Assembly (NCBI RefSeq): GCF_056712565.1 | Contig: NZ_CM160072.1 | Direction: 5' to 3' (one strand) | Length of the DNA: 64,000 nt | Shown here: positions 1-6,000 of the stretch, in pieces | Numbering within the stretch: position 1 is the first letter of the stretch | Layout of the letters: every line of letters starts with the position of its first letter | Program-made: the position numbers

Positions 1-3000
1 TAGCCTGCGCCAGATGACCACGGTATTCAAAGCCCAGGCCATACCAGCGTAGCACCAGCGTCACAATTGCGGCGACGCTGAAGGCCATAGCCCAGTTAAG
101 AAGTTGCGGCGCGTCTCCCCGTAACAGCGCATCAATGATCGGATAAAGACAGGCAAAGGCGATCCCCTGCATGAATGCCGCCAGCAACAGCGCCAGCATA
201 CTGCGTCGCAGCATCCTGGCCTGACTGCCAACGCTGGAGATAAGCTGGCGCCAGATGACGCGCCAGGCCAGGTTATCCGCAGGATTATTGTCTTTCATTT
301 TCCACCACCTCTTCCTGTGTTCCACCCGGCACCCAATGCTGCGCCTGCTGATAGTGTTGCCAGAGCCGTTGATACAGGCCGCCCTGCGCCAACAGTTGCG
401 TATGGTTCCCCATTTCCCTGAGTTGTCCGTCGGAAAACAGCAATATCACATCGGCCTGAGTCACCATTGAGAGACGATGCGCGACCATGATGACCGTCCG
501 GCCACGCATGGCCGCCGCGAGCGCCTTGATAAGCGCCGCTTCGTTTTCCGGGTCAGCAAACGCCGTCGCCTCATCGAGCACCAGGATGGGGCGATCCTGC
601 AAAAGCGCCCGGGCGATAGTAATGCGCTGCCGCTGGCCGCCGGAGAGAAATACCCCACGTTCCCCGACTCGAGTGTTGTAACCTTCTGGCAGAGCGCTAA
701 TAAAATCATGGGCCTGCGCCACTCTGGCCGCCGCTATAACCGCCTCCAGCGGCGTATCCGGCGCGCCCAGACGAATGTTATTGGCTATCGTGTCGGCAAA
801 AAGGAAGTTGTCCTGAAACACAAACGAGAGTTGCTTCATCAGGGTGTCCGTCTGCATATCACGCAGATCCACGCCGCCAATACGGATATGGCCTTTGTCC
901 GGGTCGGCGTAACGCAGCAGCAAGCGCGCCACGGTGCTTTTTCCGGCGCCGCTTGGCCCGACCAGCGCCACAATTTGCCCGGCAGGCACATGAAAGCTCA
1001 CCTCCTGCAACGCGGCGCCAGTACGCGCTTGCGGATAATGAAAGCTCACCTGCTCAAAGGTAATGCTCGCCTCTTGCGGCTGCTGGTCAGACTGCGGCAG
1101 CGATAACTCCGGCATCGCGAGAACCTGATAAATACGCTGAATGCTTAAACGCGTTTGCGCGACCAGGTTATTGAGCATCATCATTGGCATTACGGCTTCG
1201 GCCATTCCGCTGCCCAGCAGTAAAACGGCCACCCACGCGATAAAATCGAAACTGCCATAGTGCAACAGGCCGTATCCCGACCAGATCAGGACAAACAGGG
1301 TCGGGAGAGGATTCAGAATCGAGAAGGAAAAACGCGCTGAAAAACCGGCTTTGCGATACCAGGTTTTGAGCACATCGACCCACTCTTCAAGGGCGCGTTG
1401 ATAGCGCAAAAAACTGGTGCTGCCGCTATCAAACGTTCTCACCACGGGCATGGCCTGCACGAACTCAATAACCGCCGCGCTAACCTGCTCGCGCGCCTTA
1501 TGATAACGCTGAGCCATATTTTCCGAACGCTGGCGGGCGAGCACGAGAACAACCGATCCAAACGCCAGTACCCCCAGCGTCGCGATTGCCAGCCGCCAGT
1601 CCAGCCAGAACAAGATAACGATTGTCGCCAGCGGCATGATGATCGCGCGGGCATAGAGCGGCGTGCTGTCGGCCACAAAAATATGTAACGACTTCACGTC
1701 ATCCAGCATCACTTTCGCCACTGACCCGCTGCCCATTTGCTGTAACACGCCAGGCGGAAGCTGCAATGCTTTACGGGCTAACCTGCTGCGCAGAATGTTC
1801 TCCAGATGAAAAGCCGCGTAATGAGAGGTGTTGAACGCCTGTAAGCGCAGAACAAAAGTTAAGACCACGCAGCCGATCACGCCGCCCAGCGGCCAGGCCG
1901 GAATAGCGTCAGGCGTCGCGCGAATGTCACGCAGGCTCCACGCCAGAAAAAGGAGCGCCCCCAGGCTGGTTAATGCCGCCAGCCCCGCCAGCGCCATAGC
2001 TAAAATAACCTTCCTGCGAACCGGTGTAATCACCTGCCAGAGAGGAAATCGGGACAGCGATTCAGTATTGGATGATTGAGATGACATGGGAGTAACTGAA
2101 TTTCCTGATGAATTTTTACGGACGCCAAAAACGACAATTCAGGGTGGCGTTCTGAGAATTAATGTGAATAATAACCATTATCAATAACTCATCTACCCCA
2201 TTCGGTTCTATTTATACCCGCATTGGTCTAAGCCACAGGGAGATAACCAGGTCATGACGGAGTCACCGCAAACGCAATCTGAAATCTCTATTCACCAGTT
2301 GGTGGTCGGGAAACCTGCAAACGATGGCAATATTCCTGCTCAGTGTGAACTGCTGCGCTGTTCGTTGCAGGAAGGTATGGATATTTTGCTCTGGAGGGGC
2401 CATTTTGCGCGGCCAGAGACGTTGCAGCTACACGACGATCTGGGCAGGATTAACTTCTCGTGCATCCTGGAAGGCACATCGCGCTTTGCGATTCAGGGAC
2501 TCCGGCGCCACACCGACTGGGAGCTTGCGCGCAATCGCCATTACATTACCCATACGCCAGACTGTCGCGGCAGCGCCTCCTATTGTGGCCGATTCGAGAG
2601 CATTACCCTCTCCTTCAGCCCTGAAACCCTCGCGCTGTGGGTGCCGGATATTAGCGCGGTCATTAAGAATAAGATCGACTCCCACTGCTGTTGCCAGCAG
2701 CAGCGTTGTAATGCTGAAACCCACTTAACGGCTCAGGCCTTGCGTCACGCGCTGATGCGCATGCACGGCGGCTTCAGTCATGAACAAAAGCCGTCGACGC
2801 TATGGTTGCAGGGGCAAAGTCTGGTCATGCTCAGCCTGGTGCTGGATGAACATCGCGAAGACGCCAGTTGCCTCTCCTGCCACTTCAACCCGATGGAACG
2901 CCAGAAACTGCTGCGGGCGAAGGATCTGCTGCTGGCTGATCTGACGCAAGCGCCGGGCGTCGCGGAGCTGGCCAGAGAGTCCGGTCTGAGCGTTCTCAAA

Positions 3001-6000
3001 ATTAAGCGAGGCTTCCGCGTTCTGTTCAACAACAGCGTCTATGGCCTGTTTCAGGCTGAACGAATGCAGGAAGCCAGAAGACGCCTGGCCAACGGCAATA
3101 CCTCCGTCATGACGGTGGCGGCCGATCTGGGCTATGCCAACGCCAGCCATTTCTCTGCCGCCTTCCAGAAACAGTTTGGCGTAACTCCTTCGACCTTTAA
3201 ACGCGGGATGTAACCGGGGTCGCGCCCCCCTAAACTCCTCCCTGACAGAGGCCCGGATACCTCATCCGGGCCTCTGTTCTTTCCGCCTGTTACCAACCCG
3301 AAACGGGCATAAATAAACCCGTTTCGGGTAGCATTCAATTGTTAATAATTATTATTCTCATATGAGTAATGCTTTTCGGTAAGACGTGCCATCAGGAGGA
3401 AGAATGATTTCTGGCGCACCATCTCAGGATTCGCTGTTACCGGACAACCGCCACGCGGCTGATTACCAACAATTACGCGAGCGGCTCATACAGGAACTGA
3501 ATTTAACGCCGCAGCAGTTACATGAAGAGAGCAACCTGATCCAGGCCGGCCTGGATTCCATAAGATTGATGAGATGGTTACACTGGTTTCGTAAAAATGG
3601 CTACCGCCTTACCCTTCGCGAGCTGTATGCCGCCCCCACGCTGGCGGCATGGAACCAGTTAATGCTCAGCCGGTCGCCGGAGAACGCGGAAGAAGAAACG
3701 CCGCCCGACGAATCATCCTGGCCGAACATGACCGAAAGTACGCCCTTCCCATTGACGCCAGTACAGCACGCCTACCTGACGGGCCGCATGCCGGGGCAGA
3801 CGCTTGGCGGCGTGGGTTGCCACCTGTATCAGGAGTTTGAAGGCCATTGTCTGACGGCGTCGCAGCTGGAGCAGGCCATCACGACCTTGCTGCAACGCCA
3901 CCCAATGCTGCATATCGCCTTTCGCCCCGACGGGCAGCAGGTCTGGCTACCGCAACCTTACTGGAACGGCGTCACCGTTCATGATTTACGCCATAACGAC
4001 GCTGAAAGCCGCCAGGCCTATCTGGACGCACTGCGCCAGCGCCTGAGCCACCGTCTTTTACGCGTGGAAATCGGCGAAACGTTTGATTTTCAGCTGACGC
4101 TCTTGCCGGACAATCGCCACCGCCTCCATGTCAATATTGACCTGCTGATTATGGATGCCTCCAGCTTTACGCTTTTCTTCGATGAGCTTAACGCCCTGCT
4201 GGCCGGAGAATCGCTGCCGGCTATCGACACCCGCTATGATTTCCGCTCGTATTTGCTGCACCAGCAGAAGATCAATCAACCACTGAGAGACGACGCTCGC
4301 GCTTACTGGCTGGCGAAAGCATCGACGCTTCCCCCCGCGCCCGTCTTGCCGCTGGCCTGCGAACCCGCCACGCTACGTGAAGTCCGTAATACCCGACGCC
4401 GCATGATTGTCCCGGCAACACGCTGGCACGCCTTTAGCAACCGGGCCGGCGAGTATGGCGTGACGCCGACAATGGCACTGGCGACCTGTTTTTCTGCCGT
4501 GCTGGCTCGCTGGGGCGGCCTGACGCGTCTGCTGCTTAACATCACCTTATTCGACCGCCAGCCGCTGCACCCGGCGGTTGGCGCGATGCTTGCCGACTTC
4601 ACCAATATTCTTCTGCTGGATACCGCCTGCGATGGCGATACCGTCAGCAACCTGGCGCGTAAAAACCAGCTCACGTTTACGGAGGACTGGGAGCATCGCC
4701 ACTGGTCCGGCGTCGAATTACTCCGTGAACTCAAACGCCAGCAGCGCTACCCCCACGGCGCCCCGGTGGTATTTACCAGCAATCTGGGGCGTTCCCTCTA
4801 CAGCAGCCGCGCAGAATCGCCGTTGGGCGAGCCGGAATGGGGCATCTCGCAAACGCCGCAGGTCTGGATAGATCATCTGGCGTTCGAGCATCACGGCGAG
4901 GTCTGGCTACAATGGGACAGCAACGACGCGCTGTTCCCTCCGGCGTTAGTCGAAACATTGTTCGACGCCTACTGCCAGTTGATTAACCAACTCTGCGATG
5001 ACGAAAGCGCCTGGCAAAAGCCGTTCGCAGATATGATGCCCGCCAGCCAGCGCGCGATACGCGAACGGGTCAACGCCACCGGCGCCCCCATTCCCGAAGG
5101 CTTGCTGCATGAAGGCATTTTCCGTATCGCTCTGCAACAGCCGCAGGCGCTGGCGGTAACGGACATGCGTTATCAGTGGAATTATCATGAGCTGACAGAC
5201 TATGCCCGCCGTTGCGCGGGCAGGTTAATCGAGTGCGGGGTTCAGCCCGGCGATAATGTGGCTATCACGATGTCGAAAGGCGCAGGACAACTTGTTGCGG
5301 TTCTGGCCGTCCTGCTGGCCGGGGCGGTTTACGTTCCGGTTTCGCTGGATCAGCCTGCCGCACGGCGCGAGAAAATCTACGCTGACGCCAGCGTCCGGCT
5401 GGTGCTCATTTGTCAGCACGACGCCAGCGCCGGGTCAGACGATATTCCCGTCCTTGCCTGGCAGCAGGCCATTGAGGCGGAGCCGATCGCCAACCCGGTA
5501 GTACGCGCCCCCACGCAACCGGCCTACATTATCTACACCTCCGGCTCTACCGGTACGCCGAAAGGGGTAGTCATTTCTCACCGGGGAGCGCTTAACACCT
5601 GTTGCGATATCAATACCCGCTATCAGGTTGGCCCGCATGACAGGGTGCTGGCCCTCTCCGCCCTACATTTTGATTTATCGGTTTACGACATTTTTGGCGT
5701 ACTGCGCGCGGGCGGCGCGCTGGTGATGGTGATGGAAAATCAACGGCGCGATCCTCACGCATGGTGTGAGCTGATCCAGCGCCATCAGGTCACGCTCTGG
5801 AACAGCGTCCCGGCGCTGTTCGATATGCTGCTGACCTGGTGTGAAGGTTTCGCCGACGCCACGCCGGAAAACCTGCGCGCAGTGATGCTTTCCGGCGACT
5901 GGATCGGGCTTGACCTCCCCGCCCGTTATCGGGCCTTCCGGCCACAAGGACAATTTATCGCGATGGGCGGCGCCACCGAGGCGTCTATCTGGTCTAACGC

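What the first reader, a model, noticed from the sequence alone, without database searches (positions are those of the whole stretch)
2166..3360. Fur-box-like dyads in the two ybt promoter regions
GAATAATAACCATTATCAATAA (2166-2187) and AATTGTTAATAATTATTATTCTCA (3337-3360) resemble the 19-bp Fur consensus and lie where iron repression of ybtP/ybtA and irp2 would be expected. I saw no comparably good match in the ~130-bp region upstream of fyuA.
Basis: partly seen in the sequence, partly recalled or inferred. Interest (0 to 1): 0.25.

Follow-up and report, generated by a model that had tools for sequence, protein, structure and literature searches.

The report
Known Fur boxes of yersiniabactin promoters
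The two AT-rich dyads are genuine, already published binding sites for the iron repressor Fur in the yersiniabactin island of pathogenic E. coli, and a third, weaker one sits in front of the receptor gene fyuA, so the finding is correct but ordinary.

Summary
The window is the E. coli High-Pathogenicity Island (ybtQ/ybtP <- | -> ybtA | -> irp2-irp1-ybtUTE | -> fyuA), followed by the colibactin island. Both quoted strings are at the stated coordinates. The canonical 19-bp Fur boxes inside them are 2164-2182 (GTGAATAATAACCATTATC) and 3341-3359 (GTTAATAATTATTATTCTC). Each matches the consensus at 15/19.

With a PWM built from 12 non-HPI, ChIP-backed E. coli Fur sites, they rank 2nd and 1st of about 64,000 positions (18.1 and 22.9 bits). 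Dinucleotide shuffles of their own intergenic regions reach these scores in 16/20,000 and 0/20,000 trials, so the finder's refutation condition is not met.

Both sequences are the motifs published under Fur ChIP-seq peaks in E. coli CFT073 (summits 4-9 bp from the box centres). Both promoter regions were gel-shifted by Fur in a Salmonella pESI study. They are conserved footprints in yersiniabactin-like loci whose YbtA is only 52-56% identical.

The fyuA remark needs refining. A weaker box (22625-22643, 14.7 bits, 13/19) lies in the same register behind the same YbtA repeat element, under a ChIP peak about 30-40 times lower.

Verdict: real, correctly interpreted, already known. Low interest.

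The parts
2164..2182 (.). 19-bp Fur box shared by the divergent ybtP and ybtA promoters (GTGAATAATAACCATTATC). Its 7-1-7 core TAATAACCATTATCA is at 2169-2183.
   Evidence: 15/19 to the consensus; 18.1 bits, rank 2 in the window; 16/20,000 shuffles reach it; identical to the motif under the CFT073 ChIP peak, summit 9 bp from its centre; most conserved block of alignment A2; 12/14 to the 7-1-7 consensus.
2170..2188 (.). Second, overlapping Fur match shifted by 6 bp (AATAACCATTATCAATAAC). Together with the first it gives a roughly 25-bp operator, 2164-2188.
   Evidence: 16.9 bits, rank 3 in the window; 14/19 to the consensus.
2192..2226 (-). Degenerate YbtA repeat (RS) module oriented toward ybtP. 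On the minus strand it reads ACCAATGCGGGT..ACCGAATGGGGTAG and lies 9 bp from the Fur box. It lies downstream of the inferred ybtA start site (about 2188).
   Evidence: Aligns in register with the irp2 and fyuA repeat modules; conserved in Pectobacterium and Serratia. Assignment as the YbtA site rests on the literature.
3245..3277 (+). Perfect 14-bp hairpin (ACAGAGGCCCGGAT / ATCCGGGCCTCTGT, 5-nt loop) followed by TTCTTT. It is the likely ybtA terminator, which would make the irp2 promoter an independent unit.
   Evidence: the repeat finder pair I1; sequence read. The simple terminator scan did not list it, so the function is inferred.
3295..3331 (+). YbtA repeat module of the irp2 promoter: two CCCG-N3-CGGG dyads 21 bp apart (AACCCGAAACGGG / AACCCGTTTCGGG), ending in GGGTAG.
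   Evidence: the repeat finder D1 and I2; most conserved block of alignment A3; shared by 9 promoters in alignment A4.
3341..3359 (.). 19-bp Fur box of the irp2-irp1-ybtUTE operon (GTTAATAATTATTATTCTC), 44 bp before the irp2 ATG at 3404. The dyad is centred on 3350.
   Evidence: 15/19; 22.9 bits, rank 1; 0/20,000 shuffles reach it; identical to the published pESI site, whose promoter region was gel-shifted by Fur; reverse complement listed under the CFT073 ChIP peak, summit 4 bp from its centre; dyad arms 3335-3349 / 3351-3365.
22579..22614 (+). YbtA repeat module of the fyuA promoter (ACCCGAAACAGGTT / AACCCGTTTCGGGT, then AG).
   Evidence: the repeat finder I1; aligned with the irp2 module.
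22625..22643 (.). Weaker Fur box of the fyuA promoter (AGAAATAGTTATCATTTTC), 10 bp after the repeat module and in the same register as the irp2 box.
   Evidence: 13/19; 14.7 bits, rank 6; 15/20,000 shuffles reach it; CFT073 ChIP summit 5 bp from its centre but height only 48.9; identical in K. indica, whose FyuA is 92% identical.
285..2087 (-). ybtP, first gene of ybtPQXS. The ORF extends to the ATG at 2087; RefSeq annotates the start at 1997.
2254..3213 (+). ybtA, AraC-type regulator.
3404..9511 (+). irp2 (HMWP2), first gene of the biosynthetic operon.
22699..24720 (+). fyuA, yersiniabactin receptor.

Best explanation
These are the Fur operators of the yersiniabactin (HPI) regulon. Each YbtA-activated promoter (ybtP, irp2, fyuA) is built from one composite module. 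A pair of CCCG-N3-CGGG repeats, to which the AraC-type activator YbtA is reported to bind, ends in GGGTAG and is followed 9-10 bp later by a 19-bp Fur box where the -10 region and start site should lie.

When iron is plentiful, Fur with its metal cofactor occupies the box and blocks RNA polymerase. When iron is scarce, Fur leaves and YbtA bound to the repeats drives transcription.

In the ybtP-ybtA gap a single operator (2164-2188) serves both divergent promoters. It overlaps the ybtA -10, with the start site at about 2188, inferred from a start site mapped by RACE in pESI. Because the repeats then lie downstream of the ybtA start, YbtA represses its own gene.

Shown by my analysis: the sequence match, its statistics, the shared module architecture, its conservation, and the coincidence with published ChIP summits. 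Shown by others: Fur gel shifts, ChIP-seq peaks, derepression in a fur mutant, and YbtA activation and autorepression. Inferred: the exact -10/-35 elements and start sites in this window, and promoter occlusion as the mode of repression.
For: Identity of the locus. Consensus and PWM ranks. Shuffle nulls. Shared repeat + Fur architecture in three E. coli promoters and in 8 of 9 promoters from three diverged systems. Phylogenetic footprint: Fur-box columns are 82% versus 53% identical (ybtP-ybtA gap) and 66% versus 36% (gap downstream of ybtA) against loci with 52-75% YbtA identity. The top PWM hits of each diverged roughly 6-kb locus fall in the gaps flanking the ybtA homologue. Published ChIP-seq: the same 19-mers are listed; peak heights are 1445, 2150 and 48.9; fur-mutant/wild-type RNA ratios are ybtP 13.9, ybtA 168.9 and fyuA 21.1; summits are 9, 4 and 5 bp from the box centres. 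Gel shift and RACE in pESI and Yersinia. The literature states that all four ybt operons carry Fur-binding sequences, with 8- to 55-fold repression reported as Fur-mediated (iron-replete versus iron-free medium). UPEC promoter dissection with repeats and Fur box.
Against: A simple sigma-70 consensus scan found no -35/-10 pair in any of the three regions, so overlap with the core promoter is not shown from this sequence alone. This is expected for activator-dependent promoters. My PWM derives from sites the authors picked with FIMO against the consensus, so it is not fully independent of the consensus. One reporter study saw no difference between ybtA-promoter constructs with and without the Fur box during motility on rich medium. 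One diverged promoter (S. marcescens, downstream of ybtA) has the repeats but no Fur box.
Confidence: 0.95

Rival explanations
1. The dyads are just AT-rich core-promoter sequence (-10 or UP-like elements) that resembles a Fur box by chance. Iron control would then be indirect.
For: Fur boxes are AT-rich and overlap -10-like hexamers. The local patches are 72-80% AT.
Against: Shuffles of the same AT-rich 40-bp patches reach the observed score in only 12, 1 and 43 of 20,000 trials. ChIP summits are centred on the boxes. The promoter regions containing the boxes are gel-shifted by purified Fur. The Fur-consensus positions are conserved in loci that are otherwise unalignable.
Confidence: 0.02
2. 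The sites serve a different metal or nucleoid regulator, such as Zur (yersiniabactin also serves zinc uptake) or H-NS silencing of a horizontally acquired island, rather than Fur.
For: The Y. pestis review notes a role of yersiniabactin in zinc acquisition. AT-rich tracts on acquired islands are typical H-NS targets (general knowledge; not tested here).
Against: The best matches to a Zur consensus, which I recalled from memory, are 12-13 of 23, and 100-300 positions in the window do as well. The Fur models place the sites at the very top of the window. H-NS co-binding is not excluded but would be additional, not alternative.
Confidence: 0.02
3. At fyuA specifically, the weak box is not a working operator. 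Iron control of fyuA would then be mostly indirect, through Fur repression of ybtA and the need for YbtA activation.
For: The lowest PWM score, 14.7 bits. ChIP height is 48.9 versus 1445 and 2150, and no motif is listed for fyuA in Table S5B. ybtA itself rises 169-fold in the fur mutant, which could account for the 21-fold rise of fyuA.
Against: The low ChIP summit is still centred 5 bp from the box. The box is significant against shuffles. It is positionally homologous to the irp2 box and unchanged in K. indica. The literature lists a Fur-binding sequence and 12-fold repression for psn/fyuA. Receptor-gene promoters in Pectobacterium and S. marcescens carry 14-21-bit boxes in the same place.
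Confidence: 0.25

Closest known systems
Fur-binding sequences of the Yersinia HPI promoters psn/fyuA, irp2, ybtA and ybtP (Y. pestis, Y. enterocolitica, UPEC, Salmonella pESI)
   Same: They are the same elements. The window's 3341-3359 is identical to the published pESI irp2 box, and 2164-2182 differs from the pESI ybtA box at one base. Both are identical to the CFT073 ChIP motifs. Context, adjacent YbtA repeats and gene order are the same.
   Different: Nothing material. The finder's coordinates are offset by 2-4 bp from the canonical 19-mers, and the finder did not recognise the weaker fyuA box.
Canonical E. coli Fur box, GATAATGATAATCATTATC (9-1-9, or overlapping 7-1-7 / hexamer array), as at the iucA, fepA-fes and entC promoters
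   Same: 15/19 matches. The 7-1-7 cores match at 12/14. An overlapping site shifted by 6 bp at ybtP/ybtA fits the hexamer-array picture. ChIP heights of 1445 and 2150 are of the same order as entC (2860) and fes (3285).
   Different: The HPI boxes are coupled to an AraC-type activator site at a fixed 9-10 bp distance. Derepression alone is therefore not sufficient for full expression, unlike simple Fur-only promoters.
Bidirectional Fur-controlled region fepA-fes of the enterobactin system
   Same: One Fur operator region lies between divergent iron-regulated genes, as at ybtP-ybtA. This rests on general knowledge; the paper (Hunt et al. 1994) appears only in a reference list.
   Different: The ybtP-ybtA region adds YbtA repeats that activate one direction and repress the other.

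Membership tests
Fur operator (Fur box) | 19-bp AT-rich 9-1-9 dyad matching GATAATGATAATCATTATC | tested here: met
   15/19 at 2164-2182 and 3341-3359; 13/19 at 22625-22643. 7-1-7 cores match at 12/14, 12/14 and 10/14.
Fur operator (Fur box) | PWM score within the range of experimentally supported sites and above compositional null models | tested here: met
   18.1, 22.9 and 14.7 bits versus a leave-one-out range of 12.5-27.1 bits. Shuffle counts reaching the observed score: 16, 0 and 15 of 20,000.
Fur operator (Fur box) | Overlaps the core promoter (-10 / start site) of an iron-repressed gene | tested here: inconclusive
   The simple sigma-70 scan found nothing. The literature places the ybtA box over the predicted -10, with a RACE start site 5 bp downstream, and the irp2 box over the predicted -10. 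Transfer to this window is by sequence homology.
Fur operator (Fur box) | Occupied by Fur in vivo or in vitro | tested here: met
I mapped the published CFT073 ChIP-seq summits onto the record: they lie 9, 4 and 5 bp from the box centres, with heights 1445, 2150 and 48.9.
Fur operator (Fur box) | Downstream genes derepressed in a fur mutant or under iron limitation | not testable with these tools
   Literature only. fur-mutant/wild-type RNA-seq ratios: ybtP 13.9, ybtA 168.9, fyuA 21.1. Repression of 8- to 55-fold in Y. pestis, reported as Fur-mediated, measured with 10 uM iron versus iron-free medium.
Fur operator (Fur box) | Conserved across orthologous promoters | tested here: met
   The box is a conserved island in alignments with Klebsiella, S. 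symbiotica, Pectobacterium and S. marcescens. It is present in 8 of 9 aligned modules.
HPI composite promoter (YbtA repeat sequences + Fur box) | Paired repeat sequences immediately upstream of the Fur box | tested here: met
   Repeats at 3295-3331, 22579-22614 and 2192-2226 (minus strand), each 9-10 bp from the box.
HPI composite promoter (YbtA repeat sequences + Fur box) | YbtA binds the repeats, activates irp2, fyuA and ybtP, and represses ybtA | not testable with these tools
   Literature only.

The most novel reading that the evidence does not exclude
The three boxes form an affinity ladder: irp2 22.9 bits > ybtP/ybtA 18.1 + 16.9 > fyuA 14.7. The ChIP heights mirror it (2150, 1445, 48.9). 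Falling iron would then release the receptor first, the regulator and importer next, and the costly synthetase operon last. That would let a cell take up yersiniabactin made by neighbours before committing to synthesis. The K. indica locus, which keeps ybtP-ybtA-fyuA but lacks irp2-ybtE, would be the fixed form of that receptor-only strategy. It was apparently made by recombination between the two paralogous repeat + Fur modules. In addition, the composite repeat + Fur module is conserved in yersiniabactin-like clusters of Pectobacterium and Serratia marcescens (YbtA 52-56% identical). I did not see this described in the papers I read.
Probability: 0.2. Interest if true: 0.3.

Novelty: already known. 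Interest (0 to 1): 0.08.

Why it matters
It matters little beyond annotation. The Fur boxes of the HPI promoters have been described for Yersinia (the primary papers, cited from 1996 onward in the papers read here, were not held in the library), and they have since been confirmed in UPEC by ChIP-seq and in Salmonella pESI by gel shift. The check is useful as a positive control for the first-stage reader: it recognised real operators from raw sequence at the right place. The check also corrects the impression that fyuA lacks a Fur site. The graded strength of the three boxes and the conserved repeat + Fur module in distant relatives are small, testable side observations about how iron repression and siderophore-dependent activation combine.

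Tried and rejected
1. A simple sigma-70 promoter scan of the three regions found no hits, so promoter geometry had to come from the literature.

2. Three primary or review papers were requested by PMC id and are not held: PMC3148425, PMC2293247 and PMC3068685. One paper search failed on a malformed term.

3. The genome-contig scan with YbtA returned only 7 loci and no Yersinia record. The finder's suggested check in Yersinia promoters therefore rests on the literature plus conservation in Klebsiella, Serratia and Pectobacterium.

4. A Zur-box reading was tested and rejected.

5. Other PWM hits of at least 14.7 bits in the window were judged to be chance. 34027-34045 is a low-complexity A/T run. 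41775-41793 lies inside the clbP coding region. The third 15/19 consensus match (46827-46845) lies inside a clb synthetase gene and scores only 11.8 bits.

6. I did not build a K-12-based PWM. The 12 ChIP-backed CFT073-specific sites were judged sufficient, with the caveat that the authors chose them by FIMO against the consensus.
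Full report
**What the window is.** The first 8 kb are 100% identical to many ExPEC chromosomes (S88, IHE3034, APEC O1, others). 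About 2,267 of 5,426 complete E. coli genomes carry the region. The annotation of the S88 record gives:
- ybtQ and ybtP on the minus strand. The ybtP ORF extends to the ATG at 2087; RefSeq starts it at 1997.
- ybtA at 2254-3213 (+).
- irp2 at 3404-9511, irp1, ybtU, ybtT, and ybtE ending at 22568.
- fyuA at 22699-24720.

This is the Yersinia High-Pathogenicity Island. The last 25 kb of the window are the colibactin (clb) island.

**The observation.** Both quoted strings are exactly where the finder says. A scan of all positions on both strands against GATAATGATAATCATTATC finds only three 15/19 matches in 64 kb. Two are 2164-2182 (GTGAATAATAACCATTATC) and 3341-3359 (GTTAATAATTATTATTCTC). The third lies inside a clb gene. 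The finder's strings contain, or nearly contain, these canonical 19-mers; the first 19-mer starts 2 bp left of the quoted string.

**The PWM test the finder asked for.** I built a symmetrised PWM from 12 unique, non-HPI motif instances that lie under Fur ChIP-seq peaks in E. coli CFT073 (Table S5B of PMC7157518).

| Site | Score (bits) | Rank in window |
|---|---|---|
| 3341-3359 (irp2) | 22.9 | 1 |
| 2164-2182 (ybtP/ybtA) | 18.1 | 2 |
| 2170-2188 (overlap, +6 bp) | 16.9 | 3 |
| 22625-22643 (fyuA upstream, AGAAATAGTTATCATTTTC) | 14.7 | 6 |

Leave-one-out scores of the training sites span 12.5-27.1 bits. The null tests are:
- Dinucleotide shuffles of each intergenic region reach the observed maximum in 16, 0 and 15 of 20,000 trials.
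- Shuffling only the 40-bp AT-rich patch around each site (72-80% AT) reaches it in 12, 1 and 43 of 20,000.
- In random 80% AT sequence the per-position probabilities are 7e-5 (18.1 bits), 3e-6 (22.9 bits) and 3e-4 (14.7 bits).

The stated refutation condition, scores indistinguishable from random AT-rich sequence, is not met. One caveat: the training sites were chosen by the authors with FIMO against the consensus, so the PWM is a realistic softening of the consensus rather than an independent model.

**Anatomy.** Aligning the upstream regions of irp2, fyuA and ybtP (minus strand) shows one shared module.
- It has two CCCG-N3-CGGG dyads 21 bp apart, ending in GGGTAG. Their coordinates are 3295-3331, 22579-22614, and a degenerate copy at 2226-2192 on the minus strand.
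- After 9-10 bp comes the Fur 19-mer, in the same register in all three promoters. The fyuA box is therefore the positional homologue of the irp2 box.
- The literature names the repeats as the YbtA-binding repeated sequences.
- A perfect 14-bp hairpin at 3245-3277 followed by a T-rich run looks like the ybtA terminator. That would make the irp2 promoter a separate unit.
- In the ybtP-ybtA gap the module points toward ybtP, and ybtA is transcribed out of it in the opposite direction. In pESI the ybtA start site was mapped by RACE to a C 5 bp downstream of the Fur box, and the box overlaps the predicted -10. By homology this is about position 2188 here. The repeats then lie downstream of the ybtA start, which fits the reported autorepression of ybtA by YbtA.
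- A simple sigma-70 consensus scan found no hexamer pairs in any of the three regions. That is unsurprising for activator-dependent promoters, but it means promoter overlap is inferred, not shown here.

**Experimental evidence from others, mapped onto this sequence.**
- Table S5B lists GTGAATAATAACCATTATC for ybtP and ybtA, and the reverse complement of 3341-3359 for irp2.
- I fetched the CFT073 record and located the three boxes. The published ChIP summit coordinates (2225888, 2227070, 2247059) lie 9, 4 and 5 bp from the box centres.
- The ybtP-ybtA and ybtE-fyuA intergenic regions are identical between CFT073 and the window.
- Peak heights are 1445 (ybtA/ybtP), 2150 (irp2) and 48.9 (fyuA). 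For scale, entC is 2860 and fes is 3285.
- RNA-seq fur-mutant/wild-type ratios are 13.9 (ybtP), 168.9 (ybtA) and 21.1 (fyuA).
- Purified Salmonella Fur gel-shifts the ybtA promoter of pESI and of Y. pseudotuberculosis, and the irp2 promoter. The pESI irp2 box is identical to the window's, and the pESI ybtA box differs at one base.
- A review states that all four ybt operons have Fur-binding sequences and are repressed 8- to 55-fold via Fur when grown with iron. A UPEC study found Fur-box-like palindromes plus YbtA pseudopalindromes in all HPI operon leaders.

**Conservation.** One scan of species-representative genomes with YbtA returned 7 loci: three Klebsiella (97% YbtA identity), Serratia symbiotica (75%, decayed locus), two Pectobacterium (55-56%) and S. 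marcescens (52%). No Yersinia record was returned, so the Yersinia comparison rests on the literature.
- In every locus the top PWM hits fall in the intergenic DNA flanking the ybtA homologue. Examples are Pectobacterium at 25.3 bits just downstream of ybtA and 12.9 bits upstream, and S. marcescens at 16.1 bits upstream.
- In alignments with the diverged loci, Fur-box columns are 82% identical to E. coli versus 53% outside (ybtP-ybtA gap), and 66% versus 36% (gap downstream of ybtA).
- The single most conserved 19-nt window of the ybtP-ybtA gap is AATAATAACCATTATCAAT, that is, the Fur core.
- Nine promoters from the three systems align as the same repeat + Fur module, and eight keep a Fur box in register. 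The exception is the S. marcescens promoter downstream of ybtA.
- In Pectobacterium and S. marcescens the layout is ABC transporter, ybtA-like gene, MFS transporter, TonB-dependent receptor. The receptor gene is preceded by the module with 14-21-bit boxes.

**Mechanism.** Fur with its metal cofactor binds the box over the -10/start region and blocks transcription in iron-replete cells. On iron limitation Fur leaves, and YbtA on the adjacent repeats activates ybtP, irp2 and fyuA while limiting its own synthesis. The sequence match, statistics, architecture, conservation and ChIP coincidence were checked here. Binding, regulation and YbtA function come from the cited papers. Occlusion of RNA polymerase and the exact start sites in this window are inferred.

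**Rivals.**
- Chance AT-richness is excluded by the shuffles, the ChIP data and the conservation.
- A Zur box is rejected: the best matches are 12-13 of 23, with 100-300 equally good positions in the window. The Zur consensus was recalled from memory.
- H-NS co-binding is not excluded but would be additional.
- For fyuA alone, mostly indirect control through ybtA remains plausible, given the roughly 30-40 times lower ChIP signal.

**Comparison with the known, and verdict.** These are the known Fur-binding sequences of the HPI promoters, not merely similar to them. Novelty: already known. The finder's interpretation is supported. Its remark about fyuA is right in degree (no comparably good site) but misses a weaker, homologous, Fur-occupied box. 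Interest is low. The most novel reading left open is an affinity ladder (irp2 > ybtP/ybtA > fyuA) that orders induction, together with deep conservation of the composite module. The S. marcescens receptor box is strong (21.3 bits), so a weak receptor box is not universal.

Noticed in passing
L003 (Klebsiella indica TOUT106) 2501-5660, compared with window 3214-3403 and 22569-22698: K. indica has ybtP-ybtA followed directly by fyuA (FyuA 92% identical). The whole irp2-irp1-ybtUTE biosynthetic operon is missing. Downstream of ybtA the sequence starts like the irp2-side gap and switches at the repeat module to the fyuA-type repeat + Fur box + leader. This looks like a deletion by recombination between the two paralogous promoter modules, leaving a receptor-and-importer-only locus.
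   Followed up: partly
L005/L006 (Pectobacterium) and L007 (S. marcescens), about 2300-5320: Yersiniabactin-like loci with YbtA only 52-56% identical keep the same composite promoter module (CCCG-N3-CGGG repeats ending in GGGTAG, 9-10 bp, Fur box). It appears in front of the ABC transporter, the gene(s) following the ybtA homologue (an MFS transporter gene lies further downstream) and the TonB-dependent receptor gene. The S. marcescens promoter downstream of ybtA has the repeats but no Fur box.
   Followed up: partly
window 3245-3277: A perfect 14-bp inverted repeat with a 5-nt loop, followed by TTCTTT, lies just after the ybtA stop codon. It is probably the ybtA intrinsic terminator, although the simple terminator scan did not list it.
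   Followed up: no
window 285-2087 versus RefSeq 285-1997: The ybtP ORF runs to an ATG at 2087 (600 aa; K. indica also has a 600-aa ORF). RefSeq annotates a 570-aa product starting at 1997. This changes the apparent distance from the Fur box to the ybtP start codon (77 versus 167 bp).
   Followed up: no
window 39001-64000: The 3' part of the window is the colibactin (pks/clb) island, clbQ to clbJ on the minus strand. The same 64 kb therefore holds two polyketide/non-ribosomal peptide islands. Only 286 genomes cover at least 80% of this stretch, versus 2,235 for the HPI stretch.
   Followed up: partly
window about 28,300-40,000 versus S88 locus L001: Beyond fyuA the window's ORF pattern departs from the S88 record. 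There are small 3-bp offsets around 28.3-33.6 kb and a different gene order and orientation after about 34 kb (the region of the Asn tRNA genes, cbl and nac). This suggests a strain-specific rearrangement between the HPI and the clb island.
   Followed up: no
L009 (CFT073) 6364-7064: In CFT073 irp2 is split by an IS200C insertion, and irp1 and ybtE are frameshifted. Even so, the three Fur boxes and two of the three intergenic regions are identical to the window, so the regulatory DNA outlives the biosynthetic genes.
   Followed up: partly
window 34027-34045 and 41775-41793: Two other PWM hits of about 15.5 bits. One is a low-complexity A/T run in intergenic DNA near yeeN. The other lies inside the clbP coding region. 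Both were judged chance matches and give a feel for the false-positive rate (about 2 per 64 kb at 14.7 bits or more).
   Followed up: no
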